DNA from: a virus
Lineage: Duplodnaviria; Heunggongvirae; Uroviricota; Caudoviricetes
Length of the DNA: 41,751 bases
Reading direction: 5' to 3' (one strand)
IMG/VR virus record: IMGVR_UViG_2563366965_000001
Span: 1 to 41,751 of that record
Shown here: positions 1 to 38,493 of the stretch, one piece after another
How the letters are laid out: each line of letters begins with the position of its first letter
Position numbering within the stretch: the stretch's first letter is position 1
Made by a program: the position numbers and the translations under genes
Notes under the pieces: generated by a model
What the model was told of the DNA's origin: nothing
What the model saw: the letters and a program-made list of their open reading frames with translations, nothing else
Database searches by the model: none

Positions 1-573
1 ATGTTTTGCGAAGAAAAAGTAGCTCAAATGGCTGCATACCTACTTCTTAAGAGAGGTGGGCGCATGGCATATCTGAAATTGATGAAGCTGCTCTATCTGT
101 CTAACCGCCAGTCGATTTTGAAGCATGGCAGGATGATCGGCGAAGATAGCCTTTACTCTATGAAATTTGGACCAGTCATGTCGAATACGCTGAACTTGAT
201 TCGCGGTAAGGCTGAAGGCATTGGTGACTACTGGTACAACTTGATAGAGACGAACGGGCATAATGTATCGTTGCGTTCAGATCCGAGGGAAATGGATGCA
301 GACGAGGTCTTTGATGAATTGAGTCGTGCAGATATCCGGATTTTAGATGAAATCTATTCTCGGTATGGGCATATGAACCGATTTGATCTCGCAAATATGA
401 CGCATTTAGAAAGCGTTTGTCCAGAGTGGCACGATCCTGGCAATTCTCGTAAGCCTATAGACCTGAAAGAAATGCTGATCAGTGAGGGTAAAAGCGAGGA
501 TGAGGCTAATCGCATAATTGGCAAAATGGAAGAATCTCAGAAACTTAAGGAATTTTCTTTGCAATTATCATGA
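1..573 (+). CDS. Panacea (DUF4065)-domain protein, antitoxin-like (PanA/SocA/GepA-type); may be 5'-partial because the ORF opens at base 1
   Basis: Translation shows AYLKLMKLLYLSN ... MKFGPVMSN, the KLxKLLY / W-or-F-GPV pattern I associate with DUF4065; stop overlaps the next start (ATGA at 570-573). Confidence 0.55.
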   Translation: MFCEEKVAQMAAYLLLKRGGRMAYLKLMKLLYLSNRQSILKHGRMIGEDSLYSMKFGPVMSNTLNLIRGKAEGIGDYWYNLIETNGHNVSLRSDPREMDADEVFDELSRADIRILDEIYSRYGHMNRFDLANMTHLESVCPEWHDPGNSRKPIDLKEMLISEGKSEDEANRIIGKMEESQKLKEFSLQLS

Positions 574-14489: not shown

Positions 14490-15542
14490 ATGAAAAATAC
14501 TGTAAAAATAAACAGTGTTGATTTAATCAACGCTGATTGCCTGCATTTTATTCAGTCCCTGCCTGATGATTCCATTGACCTGATTGTTACCGATCCGCCT
14601 TACTTCAAGGTGAAACCTAACGGTTGGGACAATCAGTGGAAAGGGGATGAAGATTACCTTAAGTGGCTGGACCACTGTCTGGCCCAGTTCTGGCGGGTGT
14701 TGAAACCTGCCGGAAGCCTTTACCTGTTCTGTGGGCATCGCCTAGCATCTGATATTGAGATCATGATGCGTGAACGTTTCAACGTGCTTAACCATATCAT
14801 CTGGGCGAAGCCGTCCGGACGTTGGAATGGGTGTAATAAAGAAAGTCTGCGCGCATATTTTCCTGCCACAGAGCGCGTTCTGTTTGCTGAACATTACCAG
14901 GGGCCATATCGCGGCAAAAGTGACGGCTATGCGGCAAAAGAAAGGGAACTCAAACAGCACATAATGGCACCGCTGATATCGTATTTCAGGGATGCTCGTG
15001 CCGAACTGGGTATAACGGCAAAACAAATTGCCGAAGCCACAGGTAAGAAAAATATGGTTTCCCACTGGTTTGGTGCCAGTCAGTGGCAGTTGCCGAATGA
15101 GGCTGACTATCGGAAGTTACAGGCACTGTTTTCCCGTATAGCGGCAGAGAAGTTTCAGGAACAACAACTGGAACAACCACACCACCAGCTGGTGGCATCT
15201 TATGATTCACTGAATCGCAAATATTCTGAATTGCTGGATGAGTTTAAATCTCTCCGGCGCTATTTCTCCGTATCAGTCTCCGTGCCTTATACCGATGTCT
15301 GGACGCATAAGCCCGTTCAGTTCTACCCGGGTAAACATCCGTGCGAGAAACCGGCGGATATGCTCCGGCAAATAATCAATGCCAGTAGTCGACCTGGTGA
15401 TCTGGTTGCTGATTTCTTTATGGGATCCGGTTCCACAATAAAAGCAGCAATGGCGCTGGGGCGTCGGGCGTTAGGTGTTGAACTTGAGTCAGAGCGGTTT
15501 AATCAGACGGTGAAAGAGGTAAGTGAACTGGTGGGGAAATAA
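14490..15542 (+). CDS. Orphan DNA methyltransferase (beta-class, DPPY motif IV before FxGSGS motif I; N6-adenine likely)
   Basis: DLIVTDPPY near the N-terminus and DFFMGSGSTIKAA near the C-terminus; no adjacent restriction endonuclease. Confidence 0.8.
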   Translation: MKNTVKINSVDLINADCLHFIQSLPDDSIDLIVTDPPYFKVKPNGWDNQWKGDEDYLKWLDHCLAQFWRVLKPAGSLYLFCGHRLASDIEIMMRERFNVLNHIIWAKPSGRWNGCNKESLRAYFPATERVLFAEHYQGPYRGKSDGYAAKERELKQHIMAPLISYFRDARAELGITAKQIAEATGKKNMVSHWFGASQWQLPNEADYRKLQALFSRIAAEKFQEQQLEQPHHQLVASYDSLNRKYSELLDEFKSLRRYFSVSVSVPYTDVWTHKPVQFYPGKHPCEKPADMLRQIINASSRPGDLVADFFMGSGSTIKAAMALGRRALGVELESERFNQTVKEVSELVGK

Positions 15543-27422: not shown

Positions 27423-29490
27423 ATTTGAGCTTAAGGCGTTGATCACCGGTGTCGACAGGCTTTCTCCCGCGCTGTCGAAAATGCAAAAGAAAATCCGGGG
27501 ATTTAAACGCCAGGCGGAAGAAGCGTCAAAGGGTGGGCTGGCGCTTGGTGGCGGACTGGCAGCGGGTCTGACGCTTTCCCTGAAATCTTATGCCGATCAG
27601 GAAAACGCCGCCACCGGGCTGAAAGTCGCCATGATGGATGCGAATGGCGAGGTTGGAAAGAGCTTTCAGGACATCAATAAACTGGCTATTGGCCTGGGTA
27701 ACCAGCTACCCGGTACAACGGCTGATTTCCAGAACATGATGCAGATGCTGGTGCGTCAGGGGATCCCGGCAGAAAACATTCTTGGCGGTGTGGGTAAAGC
27801 GACAGCTTATCTTGCGGTACAACTGAAAAAAACACCGGAAGCGGCTGCTGAGTTTGCTGCAAAGATGCAGGATGCTACCGGAACGGCGTCAGAAGACATG
27901 ATGGGGCTGTTCGACACTATCCAGAAGGCGTTTTATCTGGGCGTTGACGATACCAACATGTTGTCCTTCTTCACTAAAACCAGTTCTGTTCTGAAGATGG
28001 TGAACAAGGACGGTCTTCAGGCTGCACAGAGCCTTGCCCCCATCAGCGTCATGATGGATCAGATGGGGATGAACGGGGAGTCGGCAGGTAATGCCCTGCG
28101 AAAAGTTATCCAGTCCGGATTAAGCGTTAAGAAAATCAGGGACGTCAATAAAATCATGGCCCGCCAGAAACTCGGGGTACAGCTCGATTTTACTGACGGC
28201 AAAGGAAGTTTTGGCGGTCTTGATAACATGTTCAGGCAACTGGCAAAGCTGCGAAAACTGACCGACGTTAAGCGAACAGGCGTACTTAAGGCAATATTTG
28301 GTGATGATGCCGAAACCCTTCAGGTGGTCAATGCACTAATCGATAAAGGAAAGGATGGTTACGATCAGATCCAGCAGAAGATGAATAAACAGGCCAGCCT
28401 GAATAAACGTGTTCAGGCACAGCTTGGTACGCTGTCCAACCTGTGGGAGGCAATGACGGGGACCGCAACTAACGGCCTTGCGGCTATTGGCGGCGCATTT
28501 TCTGGTGACGCCAAAAATATCACGCAATGGCTGGGGGAGTTGGGGGAAAAATTCACGAAGTTTGCGGATGAAAATCCCCGGGTTATTCGCGGCGTCGTCG
28601 GGCTTGCTGCCGGTCTTGCGATTCTGAAACTGGGATTGATGGGCGTGGGCAGTGCCATCAGTATCGTCAGCAGGATCATGTCGATGACGCCGATTGGCAT
28701 GATTGCGACGGCGATTGCCTTGGCTGCGGGATTAATTATCACTAACTGGGATGTTGTTGGACCTTATTTCAAGAAGCTCTGGGAAACCATTGGTCCTTAT
28801 TTTGAGGCTGGCTGGGAACTTCTGAAGAAGGTTTTTGCCTGGTCGCCGCTGGGGATGGTAATCAATAACTGGGGACCGGTTGTTAAGTGGTTTCAGGATA
28901 TGTGGGACAAGCTGAAGCCAATTATTGAGTGGTTTACCGACAGTTCCGGTGACACGGTCGATGCCATTAACTCGGCGCAGTGGGGCGCGGGTGCTTATGA
29001 TGCTTATGGGACGGGAATACCGCCACGGGGATACACTCCTTATCCGGCGCAGTCAAACAACGCCTCCGGTGACACGGTCGATGCCATTAACTCGGCGCAG
29101 TGGGGCGCGGGTGCTTATGATGCTTATGGGACGGGAATACCGCCACGGGGATACACTCCTTATCCGGCGCAGTCAAACAACGCCTCCGGTGACACGGTCG
29201 ATGCCATTAACTCGGCGCAGTGGGGCGCGGGTGCTTATGATGCTTATGGGACGGGAATACCGGCGCGGGGATACACACCTTATCCGGCGGTAGATCCGGC
29301 TCAGTCAAACAACGCCTCCGATGCTACAGGCCCGAATCCCTTCATGATTAACAAAGCTTCTGCGCCAAAAGTTGACGGTGAGATCAAGGTCTCTTTTGTG
29401 AATTCGCCTCCGGGTATGCGGGTTATGGAAACGCGATCCAGCGGTTTTGATATAAATCACGATGTTGGCTATACGCATATTGGCAGATGA
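27415..29490 (+). CDS. Tail tape measure protein
   Basis: 691 aa, alpha-helical N-terminal two thirds, hydrophobic segment, internal tandem repeats. Confidence 0.8.
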   Translation: MAEFELKALITGVDRLSPALSKMQKKIRGFKRQAEEASKGGLALGGGLAAGLTLSLKSYADQENAATGLKVAMMDANGEVGKSFQDINKLAIGLGNQLPGTTADFQNMMQMLVRQGIPAENILGGVGKATAYLAVQLKKTPEAAAEFAAKMQDATGTASEDMMGLFDTIQKAFYLGVDDTNMLSFFTKTSSVLKMVNKDGLQAAQSLAPISVMMDQMGMNGESAGNALRKVIQSGLSVKKIRDVNKIMARQKLGVQLDFTDGKGSFGGLDNMFRQLAKLRKLTDVKRTGVLKAIFGDDAETLQVVNALIDKGKDGYDQIQQKMNKQASLNKRVQAQLGTLSNLWEAMTGTATNGLAAIGGAFSGDAKNITQWLGELGEKFTKFADENPRVIRGVVGLAAGLAILKLGLMGVGSAISIVSRIMSMTPIGMIATAIALAAGLIITNWDVVGPYFKKLWETIGPYFEAGWELLKKVFAWSPLGMVINNWGPVVKWFQDMWDKLKPIIEWFTDSSGDTVDAINSAQWGAGAYDAYGTGIPPRGYTPYPAQSNNASGDTVDAINSAQWGAGAYDAYGTGIPPRGYTPYPAQSNNASGDTVDAINSAQWGAGAYDAYGTGIPARGYTPYPAVDPAQSNNASDATGPNPFMINKASAPKVDGEIKVSFVNSPPGMRVMETRSSGFDINHDVGYTHIGR
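28945..29304 (+). repeat. Three tandem 120-bp repeats within the tape measure gene (40-aa unit SGDTVDAINSAQWGAGAYDAYGTGIPPRGYTPYPAQSNNA)
   Basis: Copies 1 and 2 are identical base for base; copy 3 has a few substitutions and a 12-bp insertion. Confidence 0.95.
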
Positions 29491-29506
29491 CGGAACCAGA
29501 TATAAT
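29480..29506 (+). promoter_or_regulatory. Candidate sigma70 promoter for the tail-cluster moron (TTGGCA-N15-TATAAT)
   Basis: Perfect TATAAT at 29501-29506 inside the 3' end of the tape measure gene. Confidence 0.4.
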
Positions 29507-29542
29507 TTGTCTTTAAGTTTGTTATCAACTGAAGGGAAATCT

Positions 29543-29920
29543 ATGGGTCTGTTACATGCCATTATAGGTAATGCCGGTGAAATTAATGCATCAGATGCAC
29601 AACAGGAATTAGGGGCTGTTTTAGGTGAGGGAGAAAATGTCGAACTTGCCTATAAACTCATTCGTGACCAAATTATTCTGACTAACAGAAGGTTAATTTT
29701 TATTGATAAGCAGGGTGTCACAGGGAAAAAAGTAGAGTATCGTTCGATTCCTTATAAATCTGTGACAAACTTTTCTATTGAAACCGCCGGGCATCTTGAT
29801 CTTGATGCTGAAATGAAGATATGGATTTCTGGTATTGCAGAACCGATAAAAAAACAGTTCAGTAAAGGAGCAAACATTTATAAATTGCAGGCTCATCTGG
29901 CTCAAAAAATAGCAGGGTAA
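29543..29920 (+). CDS. Moron-encoded hypothetical protein (125 aa), possibly a bacterial PH-like domain (tentative)
   Basis: AT-rich relative to neighbouring tail genes; GAAGGG RBS; own promoter candidate and a strong terminator immediately downstream. Confidence 0.5.
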   Translation: MGLLHAIIGNAGEINASDAQQELGAVLGEGENVELAYKLIRDQIILTNRRLIFIDKQGVTGKKVEYRSIPYKSVTNFSIETAGHLDLDAEMKIWISGIAEPIKKQFSKGANIYKLQAHLAQKIAG

Positions 29921-29946
29921 ACCTTACATTAATTTATGTCGTTCAT

Positions 29947-29969
29947 GCCCACTTCGGTGGGCTTTTTTA
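29947..29969 (+). terminator. Intrinsic terminator of the moron
   Basis: GCCCAC-TTCG-GTGGGC followed by TTTTTT. Confidence 0.7.
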
Positions 29970-29983
29970 TATCCGGAGTTTAT

Positions 29984-31354
29984 ATGACGTGGAAAGACAG
30001 GCTTCAGGACGCGTCATTTCGCGGTGTGCCGTTTAAGGTTGAAGAAGAAAGTGCGGGAACAGGTCGCCGTGTGGAAACACACGAATATCCGAACCGCGAC
30101 AAACCCTATACCGAAGATCTGGGAAAAGTCACTTTCCGCCCGTCCATCACGGCTTATGTGGTGGGCGATGACTGCTTTGACCAGCGCGATCGCCTGATTG
30201 ACGCGCTGAATAAACCCGGTCCCGGCACGCTTGTCCACCCGACTTACGGTGAGCTGAAAGTCTGTGTTGACGGAGAGGTTCGGGTCAGCACATCGAAAAG
30301 TGAAGGGCGTATTGTCCGCTTTGACCTGAAGTTTGTCGAAGCGGGAGAACTCTCTTACCCCACATCAGGTGCGGCGACGGCGCAGACGCTGATGTCATCC
30401 TGTTCTGCACTGGATGACTGCATCAGTGACAGCTTCAGCGGTTTCAGTATCGATGGTGTGGCGGATTTCGTGCAGAACGACGTTATCGGTAATGCCAGCA
30501 TAATGCTGGGGTATGTTTCTGATGCGATGAAAGTGGTGGATTCTGCCGTATCGGATGCCGCCAGGCTGTTGCAGGGGGATATCTCGGTACTTCTGCCGCC
30601 GCCATCGTCAGGCAAAAATTTCGTTGAGCAGGTGCAGAAAATGTGGCGTACCGGGAAACGCCTTTATGGTAACGCCAGCGACCTGGTCACCATGATCAAA
30701 ACGCTTTCCGGTGTCAGCCTCGGCAGCGATCTGCAACCGCGCGGCGTCTGGAAAACGGACAGTAAAACCACCGCCACGGCGACGCAGCAGCGTAACGTGG
30801 TTGCCAGCACCCTTCGTGCGACCGCAATCAGCGAAGCGGCGTATGCCGTCACCCGATTGCCTGCGCCAACAACTTCCGCGGTGATGCAGAATGCCGCAGT
30901 GGGGCAGTCAACAACTTCCGCGGTGATGCAGAATGCCGCAGTGGGGCAGTCAACAACTTCCGCGCAGAGCACCGGCTGGCCTTCCGTCACGCATCCGGCA
31001 CTGAACAATGCACCGGCGGTGAAAAACACGGTTGACCTGCCAACGTGGGAAGAACTGACTGACATTCGCGACACACTGAATACGGCAATTGATAAGGAGT
31101 TGTCCCGTACAACCAGTGATGCGCTGTTTCTGGCGCTGCGCCGGGTGAAAGCAGATCTGAATGCGGATATCAACACGCGCCTTGAACAGTCTGCTCGGAT
31201 CATTCAGCGCACGCCGGATGAGGTCTTACCCGCGCTGGTGCTGGCGGCGACCTGGTTTGATAACGCGGCGCGTGACGCGGACATTATCCGGCGTAATGCC
31301 ATTACGCATCCCGGCTTTGTGCCGGTGATCCCTCTGAAGGTGCCAGTGCAATGA
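29984..31354 (+). CDS. DNA circulation protein (Mu gpN-like)
   Basis: N-terminal ASFRGVPF...HEYPNRDKPYTEDLG motif; GGAG RBS; contains a 42-bp tandem duplication (30867-30950). Confidence 0.7.
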   Translation: MTWKDRLQDASFRGVPFKVEEESAGTGRRVETHEYPNRDKPYTEDLGKVTFRPSITAYVVGDDCFDQRDRLIDALNKPGPGTLVHPTYGELKVCVDGEVRVSTSKSEGRIVRFDLKFVEAGELSYPTSGAATAQTLMSSCSALDDCISDSFSGFSIDGVADFVQNDVIGNASIMLGYVSDAMKVVDSAVSDAARLLQGDISVLLPPPSSGKNFVEQVQKMWRTGKRLYGNASDLVTMIKTLSGVSLGSDLQPRGVWKTDSKTTATATQQRNVVASTLRATAISEAAYAVTRLPAPTTSAVMQNAAVGQSTTSAVMQNAAVGQSTTSAQSTGWPSVTHPALNNAPAVKNTVDLPTWEELTDIRDTLNTAIDKELSRTTSDALFLALRRVKADLNADINTRLEQSARIIQRTPDEVLPALVLAATWFDNAARDADIIRRNAITHPGFVPVIPLKVPVQ

Positions 31355-35026: not shown

Positions 35027-35674
35027 ATGCATCGTATAGACACGAAAACCGCGCAGAAGGATAAGTTCGGCGCGGGTAAGAACGGTTTTACCCGTGGTAA
35101 CCCCCAGACCGGCACACCTGCCACCGATCTGGATGATGACTACTTTGACATGTTGCAGGAGGAGCTTTGCAGCGTTGTGGAGGCATCCGGTGCCAGCCTG
35201 GAGAAAGGGCGGCACGACCAGTTGCTTACCGCGCTTCGTGCGCTGCTGTTAAGCCGCAAGAATCCGTTTGGCGATATCAAATCAGATGGCACGGTGAAAA
35301 CGGCTCTCGAAAACCTTGGTTTGGGAGAAGCGGCGAAAAGGGATGTGGGCACAGGAGATAATCAGATACCGGATATGGGAGCATTCGCTTCTGGTTCGGG
35401 ATGGTTCAGGCTACCAGGTGGATATATTGTTCAGTTTGGCACTTTTGCAGGAAACACGACCCGCTTTATCAGTGGACACTTCCCTATACCATTCCCTAAT
35501 CAGCCGATGGTTTCAGTCAGTGTTATGTCTGATGCCGTTCAGTCAGACCCGTCGAATCCTGCCCCGCAGGTTTTGTCTGTAAATTTTGAACATATCAGTA
35601 ATTCAGCGTGGCGTGTGGCAACCAGTGATATCTCATATCAATACAGATTCAGTTATATTTCGATAGGACGGTAG
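35027..35674 (+). CDS. Tail fibre protein: constant N-terminal part (about residues 1-100) fused to the currently expressed variable C-terminal part
   Basis: A crossover site lies in-frame at codons [10 protein letters not shown]; downstream partner tfa gene. Confidence 0.6.
35307..35330. promoter_or_regulatory. Invertase crossover site, left (gix/hix/cix-like), inside the tail-fibre gene
   Basis: TCGAAAACCTTGGTTTGGGAGAAG; its inverted partner is at 37134-37157 (21/24 identical as reverse complement). Confidence 0.6.
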
Positions 35675-35676
35675 AA

Positions 35677-36117
35677 ATGCAGAAATATATTTTCAGTGCC
35701 GATAAAAATGCGTTTTTCCCTGTGGAGCTTAAAATCGCTTATCAGGAATCCGGCGAATGGCCCGGTGATGGAATCGAAATTGACGACACTGTTGCCGCCG
35801 AATTTATGAAGGAAGCACCAGAAGGAAAATACAGAGGCGTCATCGACGGAATGCCTGCATGGATTGATATTCCACCGCCAACTCATGAGGAACAAATTGC
35901 CGCAGCCGAACTGGAAAAGCAGCAATTGATTAATCAGGTCAACGAATACATAAACAGTAAGCAATGGCCTGGTAAAGCGGCGATTGGTCGCCTGAAAGGT
36001 GAGGAACTGGCGCAATATAATTTGTGGCTGGATTATCTGGACACACTGGAACTGGTCGATACTTCCGGTGCGCCAGATATTGAATGGCCTACGCCTCCGG
36101 CAGTTCAGGCCAGATGA
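35677..36117 (+). CDS. Tail fibre assembly protein (Tfa), current orientation
   Basis: 146 aa, N-terminal MQKYIFSADKNAFFP typical of Tfa; follows the fibre gene. Confidence 0.65.
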   Translation: MQKYIFSADKNAFFPVELKIAYQESGEWPGDGIEIDDTVAAEFMKEAPEGKYRGVIDGMPAWIDIPPPTHEEQIAAAELEKQQLINQVNEYINSKQWPGKAAIGRLKGEELAQYNLWLDYLDTLELVDTSGAPDIEWPTPPAVQAR

Positions 36118-36682
36118 CATCCGGCGCGGTGCTGGTATCTGTTACCGTCACCGCGTCAATGTAATCCAGCACGGCGTTAAGTCGGGTTGTTTCTGCCTGC
36201 GTCAGCTTCCGTCCGGCCTGTAATTTCAGTTGAATCAGACTGATGGAAGCCATTGCAGCATCAATCAGCGACTGGCGCTGTGCTTCTGCCGCGTCTACTG
36301 CGGCACTATGCTGTGCCTCAGTATCTGTCACCCATTTCTCACCATCCCATTTATCGTATGGCGTTAACGGTGAAAGCGTGACATAACCGTCTTTGATGGC
36401 ACCGATATAATCCACTGTAACAGCTGCGCCATTTTCGATTGAGTAAACAGTCTCATTGCGGTGGTCTTCTTCATGGCTCCATCCCTTACCCGTAAATACT
36501 GCCACTTTCCCCGGAATGTATTCGCCCGGGTCAATACCAGTGGAACAGGCGGGCATACTTACGCCAGTATTAATATATTCATCAGACCAGCCCGTATATT
36601 CAGACGTTACTGCATCATAATAAAAACAACGCATATCACCCGGCACTGTAGCCAGCCCATTTTCATCAAAAACAGGTTTCAT
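36089..36682 (-). CDS. Alternative tail fibre assembly protein (Tfa'), used after inversion
   Basis: 197 aa, Tfa-like N-terminus (MKPVFDENGLATVPGDMRCFYYDA); convergent with tfa. Confidence 0.65.
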   Translation of the reverse strand: MKPVFDENGLATVPGDMRCFYYDAVTSEYTGWSDEYINTGVSMPACSTGIDPGEYIPGKVAVFTGKGWSHEEDHRNETVYSIENGAAVTVDYIGAIKDGYVTLSPLTPYDKWDGEKWVTDTEAQHSAAVDAAEAQRQSLIDAAMASISLIQLKLQAGRKLTQAETTRLNAVLDYIDAVTVTDTSTAPDVIWPELPEA

Positions 36683-37157
36683 TATGCAGCCCTCACAATA
36701 TAATTAAAGGCGATGTTACGTGGACGGTTTTCATTAGCTGTTGGCACGACACGAGAGGCGTCGAATCCAAGGTCATCGGTTTTGTCTATAGTAGTTGTGT
36801 TATTCGGCATTCTCGCTGATCGTGTTCCTGCATCGTAAAAAGCCCCTCTGATTGCATCAAAAGACATACCGATCCCGCCATCTGCGAATCCCTCAATATT
36901 TCTTATTGCATCCCCCTGTGAAGATAATAATTGTCGCCCGGCATCCACTCCACGTCCGTCATCCCAGCCACGAATAAATTCACCGCGTAAATCAGGCAAT
37001 TTATTTGTCGGATAAACCTTTGCCAGTTCCGGGTATTCTTCAGCAGAAAAAGCCGCACCATTGCATTTTAGCCAGCCTGTTGGCGGAGTGGCGGAAGGCC
37101 ACGGGACAGGCACACCAACGGGTAATGCCGAACCTTCTCCCAAACCAACGTTTATGA
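36682..37157 (-). other. Alternative tail-fibre variable C-terminal segment (no start of its own; expressed only when inverted and fused to the constant N-terminus)
   Basis: Reading frame through the crossover site gives INVGLGEGS, in-frame with [10 protein letters not shown] at the left site; typical fibre-tip motifs (GWLKCNGAAFSAEEYPELAKVYP). Confidence 0.55.
37134..37157. promoter_or_regulatory. Invertase crossover site, right
   Basis: CTTCTCCCAAACCAACGTTTATGA, resembling hix/gix (TTCTTGAAAACCAAGGTTTTTGATAA). Confidence 0.6.
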
Positions 37158-37797: not shown

Positions 37798-38493
37798 TTA
37801 TGCACTATTTTTAGGTCTTGTAACCCGAGGTGGGAGTTGTTTGGTTATATGTTCAAGTGATTTTTTGCCCAAGATAGTTCTTTGGACAAAACTTTCTATA
37901 GCTTCTAGCATTTGTTCGAACTCACTTTTATTCGGGCTCCAACTGCGATGTGCGGCGGCGTTTCCTGCATCAATTACTGAAGATATAACGCATGCCTCAG
38001 TGTCGCCTATGACTCCATCTTGTTTTAATTTTTCAACTTTTTCACCAAGTGGCAAACCGGGGTGAATTTGTAACAGTTCAGCAGTTCGATCAAAAATCGT
38101 CCGTAAACCGATGGACGAAAGAATGAAATGGTCAGAAGTATATGAAGAATACATTTCATTAAATATTTGAAAGAGCTGACGATCAACTGATTCAAGCTTG
38201 GATAACCATATCGGAGCTTGAAATGTTTCAGCGGCAGGATAGGTAGTGATCATATCTATAGGCGTTTCTACAAATTCACCATCACGATATTCGTGGGTAG
38301 TATGCTCACTGAAGTGTTCGTTGTGGTGATAGAAGACAGTATCACAGCCATTGCATTGGAGTAGGTGATGGTAATGGTACCCATAAACTGGATATTGGGA
38401 ATCCTCCCAGCTAGTGGTTAGCTTCCCATGCACAGTGCAGTTACGTAACCCACCGCATGTAGGGCAAAGAGCCTTGAGTATTTCCTTTTTCAT
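37798..38493 (-). CDS. Zinc-ribbon + DUF4145-like protein (231 aa), function unknown; candidate accessory/defence gene
   Basis: N-terminal CPTCGG ... CNGCDT cysteine pairs; C-terminal LRTIFDRTAELL...GEKVEKLKQDGVIGDTEACVISSVIDAGNAAAHR resembles the DUF4145 pattern from memory; AT-rich; solo gene between invertase and dinI. Confidence 0.5.
   Translation of the reverse strand: MKKEILKALCPTCGGLRNCTVHGKLTTSWEDSQYPVYGYHYHHLLQCNGCDTVFYHHNEHFSEHTTHEYRDGEFVETPIDMITTYPAAETFQAPIWLSKLESVDRQLFQIFNEMYSSYTSDHFILSSIGLRTIFDRTAELLQIHPGLPLGEKVEKLKQDGVIGDTEACVISSVIDAGNAAAHRSWSPNKSEFEQMLEAIESFVQRTILGKKSLEHITKQLPPRVTRPKNSA

What the first reader, a model, noticed from the sequence alone, without database searches (positions are those of the whole stretch)
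29480..29973. Self-contained moron inserted between the tape measure and DNA circulation genes
A 125-aa ORF (29543-29920) is visibly more AT-rich than the tail genes around it. It is preceded by a perfect TATAAT (29501-29506) with a TTGGCA -35 candidate and followed by a textbook intrinsic terminator (GCCCAC-TTCG-GTGGGC-TTTTTT). That is the promoter-gene-terminator signature of a moron likely expressed from the lysogen. The protein has no family I can name with confidence (possibly a bacterial PH-like fold). Morons in tail clusters often encode lysogenic-conversion or exclusion functions.
Basis: partly seen in the sequence, partly recalled or inferred. Interest (0 to 1): 0.5.

Follow-up and report, generated by a model that had tools for sequence, protein, structure and literature searches.

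The report
Bacterial PH-domain cargo gene in prophage tail
A small foreign gene for a ring-forming "bacterial PH domain" protein sits between two tail genes of an E. coli prophage as optional cargo that most related phages lack; it is a real but fairly ordinary "moron" whose function is still unknown.

Summary
ORF 29543-29920 (125 aa) is AT-rich (GC 0.38, GC3 0.29; flanks GC 0.53-0.57) and lies between the tape-measure gene (TMP) and the Mu-N-type DNA-circulation gene (gpN) of an SfV-like prophage integrated at dusA. It is a full-length Pfam bPH_1 (PF08000) protein, about 60% identical to the solved Shewanella PHb1 pentameric rings.

It is accessory. About 1094 of 5426 complete E. coli genomes carry this tail junction, and only about 28 carry the gene, 4 of them split by IS1. 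SfV, SfII and SfIV have an empty junction. Other relatives carry unrelated cargo at the same spot.

It is under strong purifying selection (dN/dS about 0.02, dS saturated).

"Self-contained" is only partly right. The hairpin plus T-run is backbone: an empty junction carries the identical sequence. The -35-like TTGGCA is the last codons of the TMP gene, 15 bp from the TATAAT. A diverged allele in Edwardsiella phages carries a relic of that TMP tail together with the gene.

Homologs in unrelated temperate phages lie in lysogeny operons between repressor and integrase. That favours a role in the lysogen, but expression and function are untested.

Verdict: new member of a known kind, modest interest.

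The parts
29450..29490 (+). Variable 3' tail of the tape-measure (TMP) gene, the last ~14 codons (...DINHDVGYTHIGR*). It travels with the cassette and marks the left mosaic boundary.
   Evidence: Against SfV and ECC-1470, 8 mismatches cluster at 29452-29479, compared with ~2% divergence in 29185-29451. A non-coding relic of this tail precedes the bPH gene in EPP-1, L022 and L023, whose own TMP ends ~150 nt upstream.
29480..29485 (+). -35-like hexamer TTGGCA (5 of 6 to consensus), formed by TMP codons Ile-Gly-Arg.
   Evidence: Sequence. Also present at empty junctions as TTTGGCAGG. Conserved in the non-coding relic of the diverged allele.
29501..29506 (+). -10-like hexamer TATAAT, 15 bp after the -35-like hexamer. 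An alternative register is TTGGCA-17 bp-TAATTT. It lies 37 nt upstream of the ATG.
   Evidence: It reads TATAAC in the three EPP-1-type sequences. The consensus scan did not list it. Function not tested.
29531..29537 (+). Shine-Dalgarno-like GAAGGGA, 6 nt before the ATG.
   Evidence: Sequence. GAAGGG is conserved in all four alleles.
29543..29920 (+). bPH_1 / PHb1 gene: 125 aa, soluble bacterial PH-domain protein, identical to RefSeq WP_001514801.1.
   Evidence: PF08000 E = 3.1e-48, full length; phrog_7115 E = 6e-54. PDB 3DCX and 3HSA at E ~1e-39. AF2 pLDDT 82, TM 0.8 to 3DCX. dN/dS 0.016-0.024. PGAP annotation.
29947..29968 (+). Intrinsic-terminator-like hairpin GCCCAC-UUCG-GUGGGC plus U6. 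This is a backbone element shared with junctions that lack the gene.
   Evidence: An identical 36-bp segment (29948-29983) is present at the empty junction of ECC-1470. A variant is present in SfV. Annotated as a terminator in SfII.
29975..29986 (+). gpN ribosome-binding site (GGAG) and likely true start ATG at 29984. This is the right-hand conserved flank.
   Evidence: Sequence. PGAP start in 1332KP. Identity with relatives resumes at 29948.

Best explanation
What it is (shown). This is a moron-type cargo cassette of about 0.5 kb (roughly 29450-29947). It sits at a recombination hot spot between the tape-measure gene (TMP) and the Mu-N-type DNA-circulation gene (gpN) of SfV-like temperate phages. 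It encodes a captured cellular-type PHb1 (bPH_1) protein: a soluble PH-fold subunit whose solved homologs form C5 dome-shaped rings with five conserved inter-subunit binding sites. The gene is dispensable for making phage but is kept under strong purifying selection.

How it is expressed (inferred).
- During lytic growth it is transcribed with the late operon. No terminator precedes it, and Q antitermination reads through the terminator after it.
- In the lysogen it is probably transcribed at a low level from a hybrid sigma-70 promoter. The -35 is the TMP tail (TTGGCA) and the -10 (TATAAT) is supplied by the cassette. The pre-existing TMP terminator would stop this transcript before the baseplate genes.

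What it does (inferred, lower confidence). The ring acts as a protein-binding adaptor or cap on a conserved, probably envelope-associated, host component. This benefits the lysogen, most likely by excluding or resisting other phages, or else by raising tolerance to envelope stress.

My sub-confidences: optional cargo under selection 0.9; expressed from the repressed prophage 0.5; phage exclusion or defence as the benefit 0.3.
For: Presence/absence:
- Empty junctions in SfV, SfII, SfIV and ECC-1470.
- The cassette is in 24 intact and 4 IS1-split copies among 5426 genomes, ~1094 of which have this junction.
- Alternative cargos occupy the same spot: a 170-aa protein with a signal peptide in 85 genomes, and a membrane-anchored OB-fold protein on the reverse strand in ~74.

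Foreign origin: GC3 of 0.29 against ~0.6 in the flanks.

Selection: dN/dS 0.016-0.024 with dS > 2 between allele classes.

Mobility as a unit:
- The EPP-1-type allele carries a TMP-tail relic, the -35/-10 block, the gene and the hairpin behind a different TMP end.
- That allele sits in an Edwardsiella hoshinae prophage whose tail genes are 94-98% identical to the window's.
- The identical gene is found next to a TMP only 62% identical (L012).

Protein identity. All residues that Xu et al. 2010 single out (R41, D42, T47, R50, T60, D86, D88) are invariant in the 21-sequence alignment that includes this protein (PMC2817789 read).

Promoter: a rare motif that is conserved in a non-coding context across alleles whose synonymous sites are saturated.

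Q antiterminator: present in this prophage type (PMC3851460).

Lysogen role by position:
- Homologs lie on the same strand between the CI repressor and the integrase in ul36 and in a Vibrio 186-like prophage. In the latter the gene is directly upstream of a defence-type SIR2 protein.
- L028 has the same arrangement.
- Among 113 neighbouring ORFs from 21 dereplicated viral loci, the most frequent families are Cro/CI HTH (11), ImmA/IrrE protease (6) and integrase (4). Abi/OLD-type ATPases (2) and an Ltp exclusion lipoprotein (1) also appear.
- Lactococcal sie285 has a membrane anchor plus a PHb domain (PMC6127208).

Precedent: the HK97 gp15 moron next to the TMP gene is a superinfection-exclusion protein (PMC3594210).
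Against: - There are no expression data.
- The spacer is 15 bp and the consensus scan does not call the promoter.
- The diverged allele has TATAAC, which loses the conserved last T of the -10 hexamer.
- The terminator is not specific to the cassette.
- The protein has no signal peptide or membrane segment, unlike characterised Sie proteins.
- It matches no PADLOC defence model and no NCBIfam model.
- No functional study of any PF08000 member was found.
- Cellular homologs are stand-alone genes with no conserved partner and are not linked to mobile elements. The family's native role is therefore not obviously phage-related.
Confidence: 0.6

Rival explanations
1. Late-only accessory. The gene is expressed only as part of the Q-dependent late transcript and serves the lytic cycle, for example by stabilising the host envelope until lysis or by countering a host abortive-infection response. 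The TATAAT would then be fortuitous.
For: - The gene lies inside the late operon, with no terminator between it and the TMP gene, and it has its own ribosome-binding site.
- The promoter has a 15-bp spacer and reads TATAAC in the other allele.
- The plaque-forming phage EPP-1 retains the gene (PMC11043334).
Against: - In unrelated temperate phages the homolog sits in the repressor-integrase operon, not in late operons.
- The -35/-10 block is conserved in a non-coding context while synonymous sites are saturated.
- More than 97% of related tail modules do without it.
Confidence: 0.2
2. Host-physiology conversion, not phage exclusion. The prophage supplies E. coli with a PHb1 ring that it otherwise lacks. 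This raises tolerance to envelope stress or antimicrobial peptides, as suggested for the sigma-W-regulated B. subtilis YozO.
For: - Xu et al. report that YozO is induced by antibiotics, heat and alkaline shock under sigma-W, and that YvbH and other homologs are found in membrane-associated fractions (PMC2817789).
- The family shows 50-66% identity across phyla, which points to a universal cellular partner.
- No E. coli-named cluster other than the prophage protein appears among the best 120 hits.
Against: - It is purely correlative.
- Removing bIL285, which encodes the PHb-containing sie285, made L. lactis more resistant, not less, to lysozyme and nisin (PMC6127208).
- Neighbours in prophage contexts are of the immunity or defence type more than the stress type.
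Confidence: 0.15
3. Tail structural or assembly component, for example a factor that acts with the tape measure or the baseplate hub.
For: Its position between the TMP gene and gpN. C5 rings are reminiscent of virion symmetry (PMC2817789).
Against: - It is absent from SfV, SfII and SfIV, which are isolated phages with the same tail module, and from more than 97% of E. coli junctions.
- IS1-split copies persist.
- The composition is foreign.
- The closest homologs outside these phages are chromosomal stand-alone genes.
- A Mu-type tail has 6-fold/3-fold symmetry, not 5-fold (own knowledge).
Confidence: 0.03
4. A neutral hitch-hiker or decaying remnant with no function.
For: Low frequency (~0.5% of E. 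coli genomes) and four IS1-disrupted copies.
Against: - dN/dS is about 0.02 over saturated synonymous divergence.
- Both allele classes have intact reading frames.
- All family-invariant residues are retained.
Confidence: 0.02

Closest known systems
HK97 gene 15 moron (Juhala et al. 2000; Cumby et al. 2012; reviewed in PMC3594210)
   Same: Both are small, compositionally foreign genes inserted in the tail operon of a lambdoid-regulated phage, directly next to the tape-measure gene. Both are absent from close relatives and are flanked by promoter-like and terminator elements. Both are related to a cellular gene family (YebO for gp15, PF08000 here).
   Different: gp15 is an inner-membrane protein with demonstrated prophage expression and superinfection exclusion. 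The protein here is soluble, has a PH fold, has no membrane segment, and has no demonstrated expression or phenotype. The proteins are unrelated. Here the terminator is shared with empty junctions.
PHb1 proteins of Shewanella (PDB 3DCX, 3HSA; Xu et al. 2010, PMC2817789), Pfam bPH_1 PF08000
   Same: Same family and length. About 60% identity by sequence alignment. The predicted fold superposes with TM ~0.8. All conserved core and rim-site residues are retained.
   Different: Those are chromosomal genes of unknown function. This copy is phage cargo in a host species that otherwise seems to lack the family. The oligomeric state of the phage copy has not been tested.
PHb genes in lysogeny modules: Lactococcus phage ul36 ORF124, Microbacterium phage Min1 ORF77, Lactococcus bIL285 ORF2 (sie285)
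   Same: Same domain family, carried by temperate phages as non-essential cargo. ul36 ORF124 is 39% identical and lies between repressor and integrase. sie285 lies at the canonical sie position.
   Different: Those sit in the early/lysogeny region, not the tail operon. sie285 has an added membrane anchor. The text read here reports resistance only for sie309 and sie312. No phenotype for the PHb proteins was found.
Cargo and defence hot spots of temperate phages (lambda rexAB downstream of cI; P2/186 hot spots)
   Same: A fixed junction with interchangeable, unrelated cargo genes, at least three kinds here. A Vibrio 186-like prophage carries a homolog beside a SIR2 defence-type gene between cI and int.
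   Different: The hot spot here is inside the late tail operon. None of its three cargos matches a known defence model.

Membership tests
Pfam bPH_1 / PHb1 (PF08000, former DUF1696) | Profile match above the curated gathering score over the full domain | tested here: met
   163.2 bits against a cut-off of 27.7; residues 3-122 match profile positions 2-121 of 122.
Pfam bPH_1 / PHb1 (PF08000, former DUF1696) | Group-1 architecture: single domain, ~125 aa, no membrane segment | tested here: met
   125 aa. Aligns with at most a one-residue C-terminal length difference to 124-127-aa homologs. The model is a beta-sandwich with a C-terminal helix.
Pfam bPH_1 / PHb1 (PF08000, former DUF1696) | PH-like fold superposable on solved PHb1 structures | tested here: met
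   AF2 pLDDT 82. Foldseek top hits are 3DCX and 3HSA, E ~1e-12 to 1e-13, TM 0.80-0.86.
Pfam bPH_1 / PHb1 (PF08000, former DUF1696) | Conserved buried Thr/Arg pair and rim binding-site residues described by Xu et al. 2010 | tested here: met
   R41, D42, T47, R50, T60, D86 and D88 are invariant in alignment A1, which includes this protein (residues named in PMC2817789).
Pfam bPH_1 / PHb1 (PF08000, former DUF1696) | C5 pentameric dome-shaped ring | not testable with these tools
   Only a monomer was predicted. Needs SEC-MALS, a crystal structure or cryo-EM.
Moron (Juhala et al. 2000; as summarised in PMC3594210) | Extra DNA present in one phage and absent from otherwise closely related phages | tested here: met
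   Empty junctions in SfV, SfII, SfIV and ECC-1470. About 28 of ~1094 E. coli junctions hold the gene.
Moron (Juhala et al. 2000; as summarised in PMC3594210) | Base composition different from the surrounding genes | tested here: met
   GC 0.378 and GC3 0.286, against 0.53-0.57 and 0.57-0.62 in the flanks.
Moron (Juhala et al. 2000; as summarised in PMC3594210) | Own promoter | tested here: inconclusive
   TTGGCA-15 bp-TATAAT is rare in the window and conserved as a non-coding block in the diverged allele. Against this, the -35 is TMP coding sequence, the spacing is suboptimal, the other allele reads TATAAC, and the scan does not list it. No activity data.
Moron (Juhala et al. 2000; as summarised in PMC3594210) | Own terminator | tested here: not met
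   A good hairpin plus T6 follows the gene. The identical element is present at the empty ECC-1470 junction, and a variant is present in SfV and SfII. It is a backbone terminator that the cassette sits upstream of.
Moron (Juhala et al. 2000; as summarised in PMC3594210) | Expressed from the repressed prophage | not testable with these tools
   No transcriptome data available. No paper mentions WP_001514801.
Superinfection-exclusion proteins (HK97 gp15, lactococcal Sie, P22 SieA type) | Membrane-spanning or lipoprotein N-terminus that places the protein in the envelope | tested here: not met
   No hydrophobic segment. Residues 1-9 (MGLLHAIIG) are short and have low confidence in the model. The rest is a soluble PH fold.
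Superinfection-exclusion proteins (HK97 gp15, lactococcal Sie, P22 SieA type) | Blocks genome entry of superinfecting phage | not testable with these tools
   Needs plating and DNA-entry assays.
Known or candidate anti-phage defence systems (PADLOC-DB v2) | Match to any defence-protein model | tested here: not met
   0 families at E <= 1.

The most novel reading that the evidence does not exclude
PHb1 (bPH_1) rings may be an unrecognised, widespread class of single-gene, prophage-borne protective factor. On this reading, a soluble C5 ring docks on a universally conserved envelope or nucleic-acid-handling machine and blocks superinfecting phages, or arms a neighbouring effector such as the adjacent SIR2 protein in the Vibrio prophage. 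The chromosomal copies found across many phyla would be the same system in domesticated form. The TMP-gpN junction of SfV-like phages would then be a previously undescribed defence-cargo hot spot inside a late tail operon.
Probability: 0.2. Interest if true: 0.6.

Novelty: new member of a known kind. Interest (0 to 1): 0.35.

Why it matters
- PF08000 is conserved at 50-66% identity from Proteobacteria to Firmicutes, Bacteroidota and Actinomycetota. It has had solved structures since 2008, yet no known function.
- Unrelated temperate phages have captured it repeatedly, in lysogeny operons and here in a tail-operon hot spot, and it is under strong purifying selection. This gives a simple experimental handle. 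E. coli appears to lack the family apart from this prophage gene, so adding or deleting the 0.5-kb cassette is a clean gain- or loss-of-function test.
- The locus also shows how a moron can assemble its expression signals from backbone parts: a -35 from the end of the tape-measure gene and a terminator that was already there.
- Practically, EPP-1, a phage proposed for aquaculture therapy, carries this cargo.

Tried and rejected
- Shared "expression platform" between the bPH cassette and the SKA5-type cassette. The leaders looked alike by eye (ATAATTTG..., TGAAGGGA...ATG). The local alignment score is not above shuffles: 649 of 2000 reach it for the window leader, and 1011 of 2000 for the EPP-1 leader. 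Rejected.
- RNA element in the cassette or its 3' UTR. Rfam gave nothing above gathering score; the best was isrB at 26.8 bits against 35. The 5' leader fold is not unusual, z = -1.2.
- Known defence or named family. PADLOC gave 0 hits and NCBIfam 0 hits. PHROGs gave only a family of unknown function.
- Conserved operon partner in cellular genomes. Three individual contexts and 68 immediate neighbours from 34 species show none, and no integrases.
- Functional literature on PF08000, DUF1696, YozO, YvbH and YjqA, on bPH with prophage defence, and on the protein accession. Nothing beyond Xu et al. 2010. Mahony et al. 2008 (PMC2570291) is not held.
- Viral structure library. No functionally characterised match. 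The top hit is a 340-aa "putative tape measure" of Anoxybacillus phage A403 at TM 0.62, probably a PH-domain fusion.
- I first read L023 as an E. coli phage. The genome scan shows it is an Edwardsiella hoshinae contig.
Full report
**1. Observation**

The sequence features are exactly as described.
- The ORF at 29543-29920 encodes 125 aa.
- GC drops to 0.37-0.40 across the region, against 0.50-0.60 in the flanks. CDS GC is 0.378 and GC3 0.286. The tape-measure gene (TMP) has 0.526/0.568 and the downstream gene 0.567/0.621.
- The flanking genes are a tape-measure protein (PF10145, 27415-29490) and a Mu-N-type DNA-circulation/baseplate-hub protein (gpN; PF07157, phrog_184). Its likely start is ATG 29984, behind a GGAG. 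The next gene is a Mu-P-type baseplate protein.
- TATAAT at 29501-29506 is the only perfect TATAAT on the + strand of the late operon.
- TTGGCA at 29480-29485 lies 15 bp upstream of it. The 16-18-bp consensus scan therefore does not report the pair. TTGGCA-N14-19-TATAAY occurs once, against 0.09 expected.
- The hairpin GCCCAC-UUCG-GUGGGC plus U6 (29947-29968) is called by the scan. It folds at -12.7 kcal/mol, z = -3.4.

**2. Setting**

The window is 99.5-99.99% identical to a dusA-integrated prophage of E. coli 1332KP. The exceptions are one extra 120-bp repeat in the TMP gene and a different tail-fibre segment. The prophage has a lambda-like CI/Cro region, a Q antiterminator, a lysis cassette, an HK97-type head and a Mu-type contractile tail. 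This is the SfV/SfII/SfI/SfIV group of Shigella and E. coli phages. These phages are described as using Q antitermination for late genes (PMC3851460).

**3. Is the gene optional? Yes**

- In SfV the TMP gene and gpN are 45 bp apart, and in SfIV 24 bp. SfII and E. coli ECC-1470 are also empty.
- A 1.6-kb probe across the junction finds 1094 of 5426 complete E. coli genomes. Only 28 cover it fully.
- The cassette alone is found intact in 24 genomes and split by IS1 in 4.
- Other relatives carry different cargo at the same point:
  - a 170-aa protein with an N-terminal signal-peptide-like segment, + strand, in 85 genomes;
  - a 148-aa membrane-anchored tRNA_anti-like OB-fold protein on the opposite strand, in about 74 genomes.

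**4. Boundaries and the "self-contained" claim**

- Against empty-site relatives, divergence is about 2% up to 29451. Then 8 mismatches cluster in 29452-29479. Segment 29485-29947 is absent. Identity resumes at 29948.
- The hairpin, T-run and gpN ribosome-binding site (29948-29983) are identical at the empty ECC-1470 junction. SfV has a close variant, TCCCAC-TCCG-GTGGGA-T5, which folds at -14.3 kcal/mol. The SfII depositors annotated it as a rho-independent terminator.
- The terminator is therefore a backbone feature after the TMP gene, and the cargo sits upstream of it.
- The -35-like TTGGCA is formed by TMP codons Ile-Gly-Arg and is also present at empty sites as TTTGGCAGG. Only the -10-like element is supplied by the insert.

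**5. A second, diverged allele shows that the unit moves**

- Edwardsiella phage EPP-1 is a plaque-forming temperate phage (PMC11043334). It carries an 89%-identical protein at the same junction, as do two Edwardsiella prophages.
- Their TMP ends with a different tail (...VGRRAW*) about 150 nt upstream. The intergenic region holds a non-coding relic of the window-type TMP tail, followed by ATTGGCAGATAAC..AAC..GGATATAAC, a conserved TATCAA..GAAGGG ribosome-binding region, the gene and the same hairpin.
- Between the allele classes, synonymous sites are saturated (dS 2-4) while dN is 0.05-0.07, giving dN/dS of 0.016-0.024.
- Against that background, the -35/-10 block (11/11 and 7/7 identical cores) is a conserved non-coding footprint. 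That is moderate evidence for function.
- A further block of the relic (TTGAT.TAAATCACGAT) is also conserved, so the footprint is not exclusive to the promoter hexamers. The -10 reads TATAAC in that allele. An alternative register with a 17-bp spacer (TAATTT / TAACCT) keeps the critical A2 and T6 in both alleles.
- The E. hoshinae prophage (L023 = L076) combines tail genes 94-98% identical to the window's with the diverged allele. L012 combines the identical bPH gene with a TMP only 62% identical. This is classic mosaic exchange.

**6. The protein**

- It is a full-length PF08000 bPH_1 match (E = 3e-48) and a phrog_7115 match (unknown function).
- By sequence alignment it is about 60% identical to the Shewanella PHb1 structures 3DCX and 3HSA.
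- The AF2 model (pLDDT 82) superposes on them with TM 0.80-0.86.
- Xu et al. 2010 showed that these proteins form C5 dome-shaped pentamers with a conserved inter-subunit site at the rim. They predicted protein binding, not lipid binding. They already noted PHb1 genes in the lysogeny modules of ul36 and Min1.
- All residues they highlight are invariant in a 21-sequence alignment that includes this protein. So is an N-terminal motif (M1, G2, G9, N10, A11, E13) that is predicted with low confidence.
- The family is unusually conserved, at 50-66% identity to Photobacterium, Clostridium, Paenibacillus, Bacteroides, Nocardia and cyanobacteria.
- Cellular copies are stand-alone genes with no conserved neighbour and no integrase nearby.
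- Relatives at or above 88% identity occur only at this phage junction, in E. coli and Edwardsiella.

**7. Function by context**

- In ul36 the order is CI repressor, metalloprotease, ORF355, bPH, integrase, all on one strand.
- In a Vibrio 186-like prophage the order is CI, bPH, SIR2-like protein, integrase. The SIR2-like protein matches PADLOC Argonaute-associated SIR2 at E = 3.5e-64 and the candidate family PDC-S65 at E = 7e-29.
- In L028 the order is HTH, small ORF, bPH, DUF6414 protein, then integrase further on. In L027 a Schlafen/AlbA_2 protein lies directly upstream.
- Across 21 dereplicated non-SfV viral loci, the commonest neighbour families are Cro/CI HTH (11 ORFs), ImmA/IrrE protease (6) and integrase (4). 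Abi/OLD-type ATPases (2) and an Ltp exclusion lipoprotein (1) also occur. A few loci place bPH just upstream of the terminase genes.
- Lactococcal sie285 combines a membrane anchor with a PHb domain at the canonical sie position (PMC6127208).
- Together this points to a gene that works in the lysogen and keeps company with immunity and defence cargo.
- It does not match any PADLOC model. It lacks the membrane anchor of characterised Sie proteins. No phenotype is published.

**8. Proposed mechanism (steps marked)**

- Shown: optional cargo, foreign origin, purifying selection, PHb1 identity, backbone terminator, no terminator upstream.
- Inferred: late read-through expression under Q. Low-level lysogen expression from a hybrid promoter (TMP-tail -35 plus cassette -10), stopped by the TMP terminator.
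- Inferred, with lower confidence: the ring binds a conserved host partner, and the benefit is phage exclusion or defence, or else envelope-stress tolerance.
- The closest precedent in architecture is the HK97 gp15 moron beside the tape-measure gene (PMC3594210).

**9. Verdict**

- This is a genuine moron-type insertion. It is correctly located and largely correctly interpreted. Two corrections apply: the terminator and the -35 are backbone-derived, and expression and function are unproven.
- The gene is already annotated in RefSeq as "PH domain-containing protein". Phage carriage of PHb1 was noted in 2010.
- Rating: new member of a known kind, interest about 0.35. The upside is that it offers a clean system in which to find the function of PF08000.

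Noticed in passing
window 28945-29289: A 120-bp tandem repeat (2.9 copies, 98% matches) lies inside the tape-measure gene. E. coli 1332KP has one copy fewer. TMP length is 691 aa here, 651 aa in 1332KP and 611 aa in SfV, ECC-1470 and pMTY18781-3. This predicts tail-length variation among otherwise near-identical phages.
   Followed up: partly
window 30867-30964: A perfect 42-bp tandem repeat (2.3 copies) lies inside the DNA-circulation/baseplate-hub gene gpN. gpN length varies among relatives, with genes of 1329-1377 nt.
   Followed up: no
L002:1930-2442 (phage SKA5) and L003:1881-2327, minus strand (E. coli PBS4): Two other cargo genes occupy the same TMP-gpN junction. One is a 170-aa protein with a signal-peptide-like N-terminus and no Pfam or PADLOC match, in 85 E. 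coli genomes. The other is a 148-aa membrane-anchored tRNA_anti-like OB-fold protein on the opposite strand, in ~74 genomes. Functions unknown.
   Followed up: partly
L008:1636-2789 (E. coli EC_J_9): The bPH gene is split by an IS1B insertion in four E. coli genomes (EC_J_9, B1S11, 2196, MINF_2E). The gene is therefore dispensable for keeping the prophage.
   Followed up: partly
L035:2440-6602 (Vibrio phage 10N.286.45.B12_PE001): The lysogeny operon runs CI repressor, bPH_1 protein, 612-aa SIR2-like protein (PADLOC Argonaute-associated SIR2, E = 3.5e-64), integrase. This could be a two-gene unit or just adjacent cargo.
   Followed up: partly
L023 = L076 (Edwardsiella hoshinae NBRC 105699 contig, 42,390 bp): An Edwardsiella prophage has sheath, tube, gpN and gpP proteins 94-98% identical to this E. 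coli prophage but carries the diverged (89%) bPH allele. A nearly identical tail module is thus shared across genera.
   Followed up: partly
L010 (E. coli TUM18781 'plasmid' pMTY18781-3, 70,209 bp): The same tail module with the bPH cassette lies on a record deposited as a 70-kb circular plasmid. It may be a phage-plasmid, an excised prophage or an assembly artefact.
   Followed up: no
window 29936-29983: The longest ORF for gpN starts at ATG 29936 and would run through the terminator hairpin. The SfII record uses such an upstream start, which overlaps its annotated terminator. PGAP and the GGAG at 29975-29978 favour ATG 29984.
   Followed up: partly
window 1-573, 603-989 and 37798-38493 (minus strand): Other likely accessory genes lie at the prophage ends. 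At the left end are a Panacea-domain protein and a 128-aa hypothetical protein. Between the tail-fibre invertase region and DinI/integrase is a DUF4145 protein. None matches a PADLOC model.
   Followed up: partly
window 14490-15542: A DNA methyltransferase gene lies between Q and the holin gene, with no restriction partner nearby. PADLOC matches it to Type II MTase at E = 1.6e-152. SfIV is reported to lack the methylase found in SfII and SfV.
   Followed up: partly
window 35380-36934: The tail-fibre / fibre-assembly segment next to a site-specific recombinase gene is the only long stretch that differs from E. coli 1332KP (87-95% or no match). This fits an invertible or exchanged host-range cassette.
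   Followed up: no
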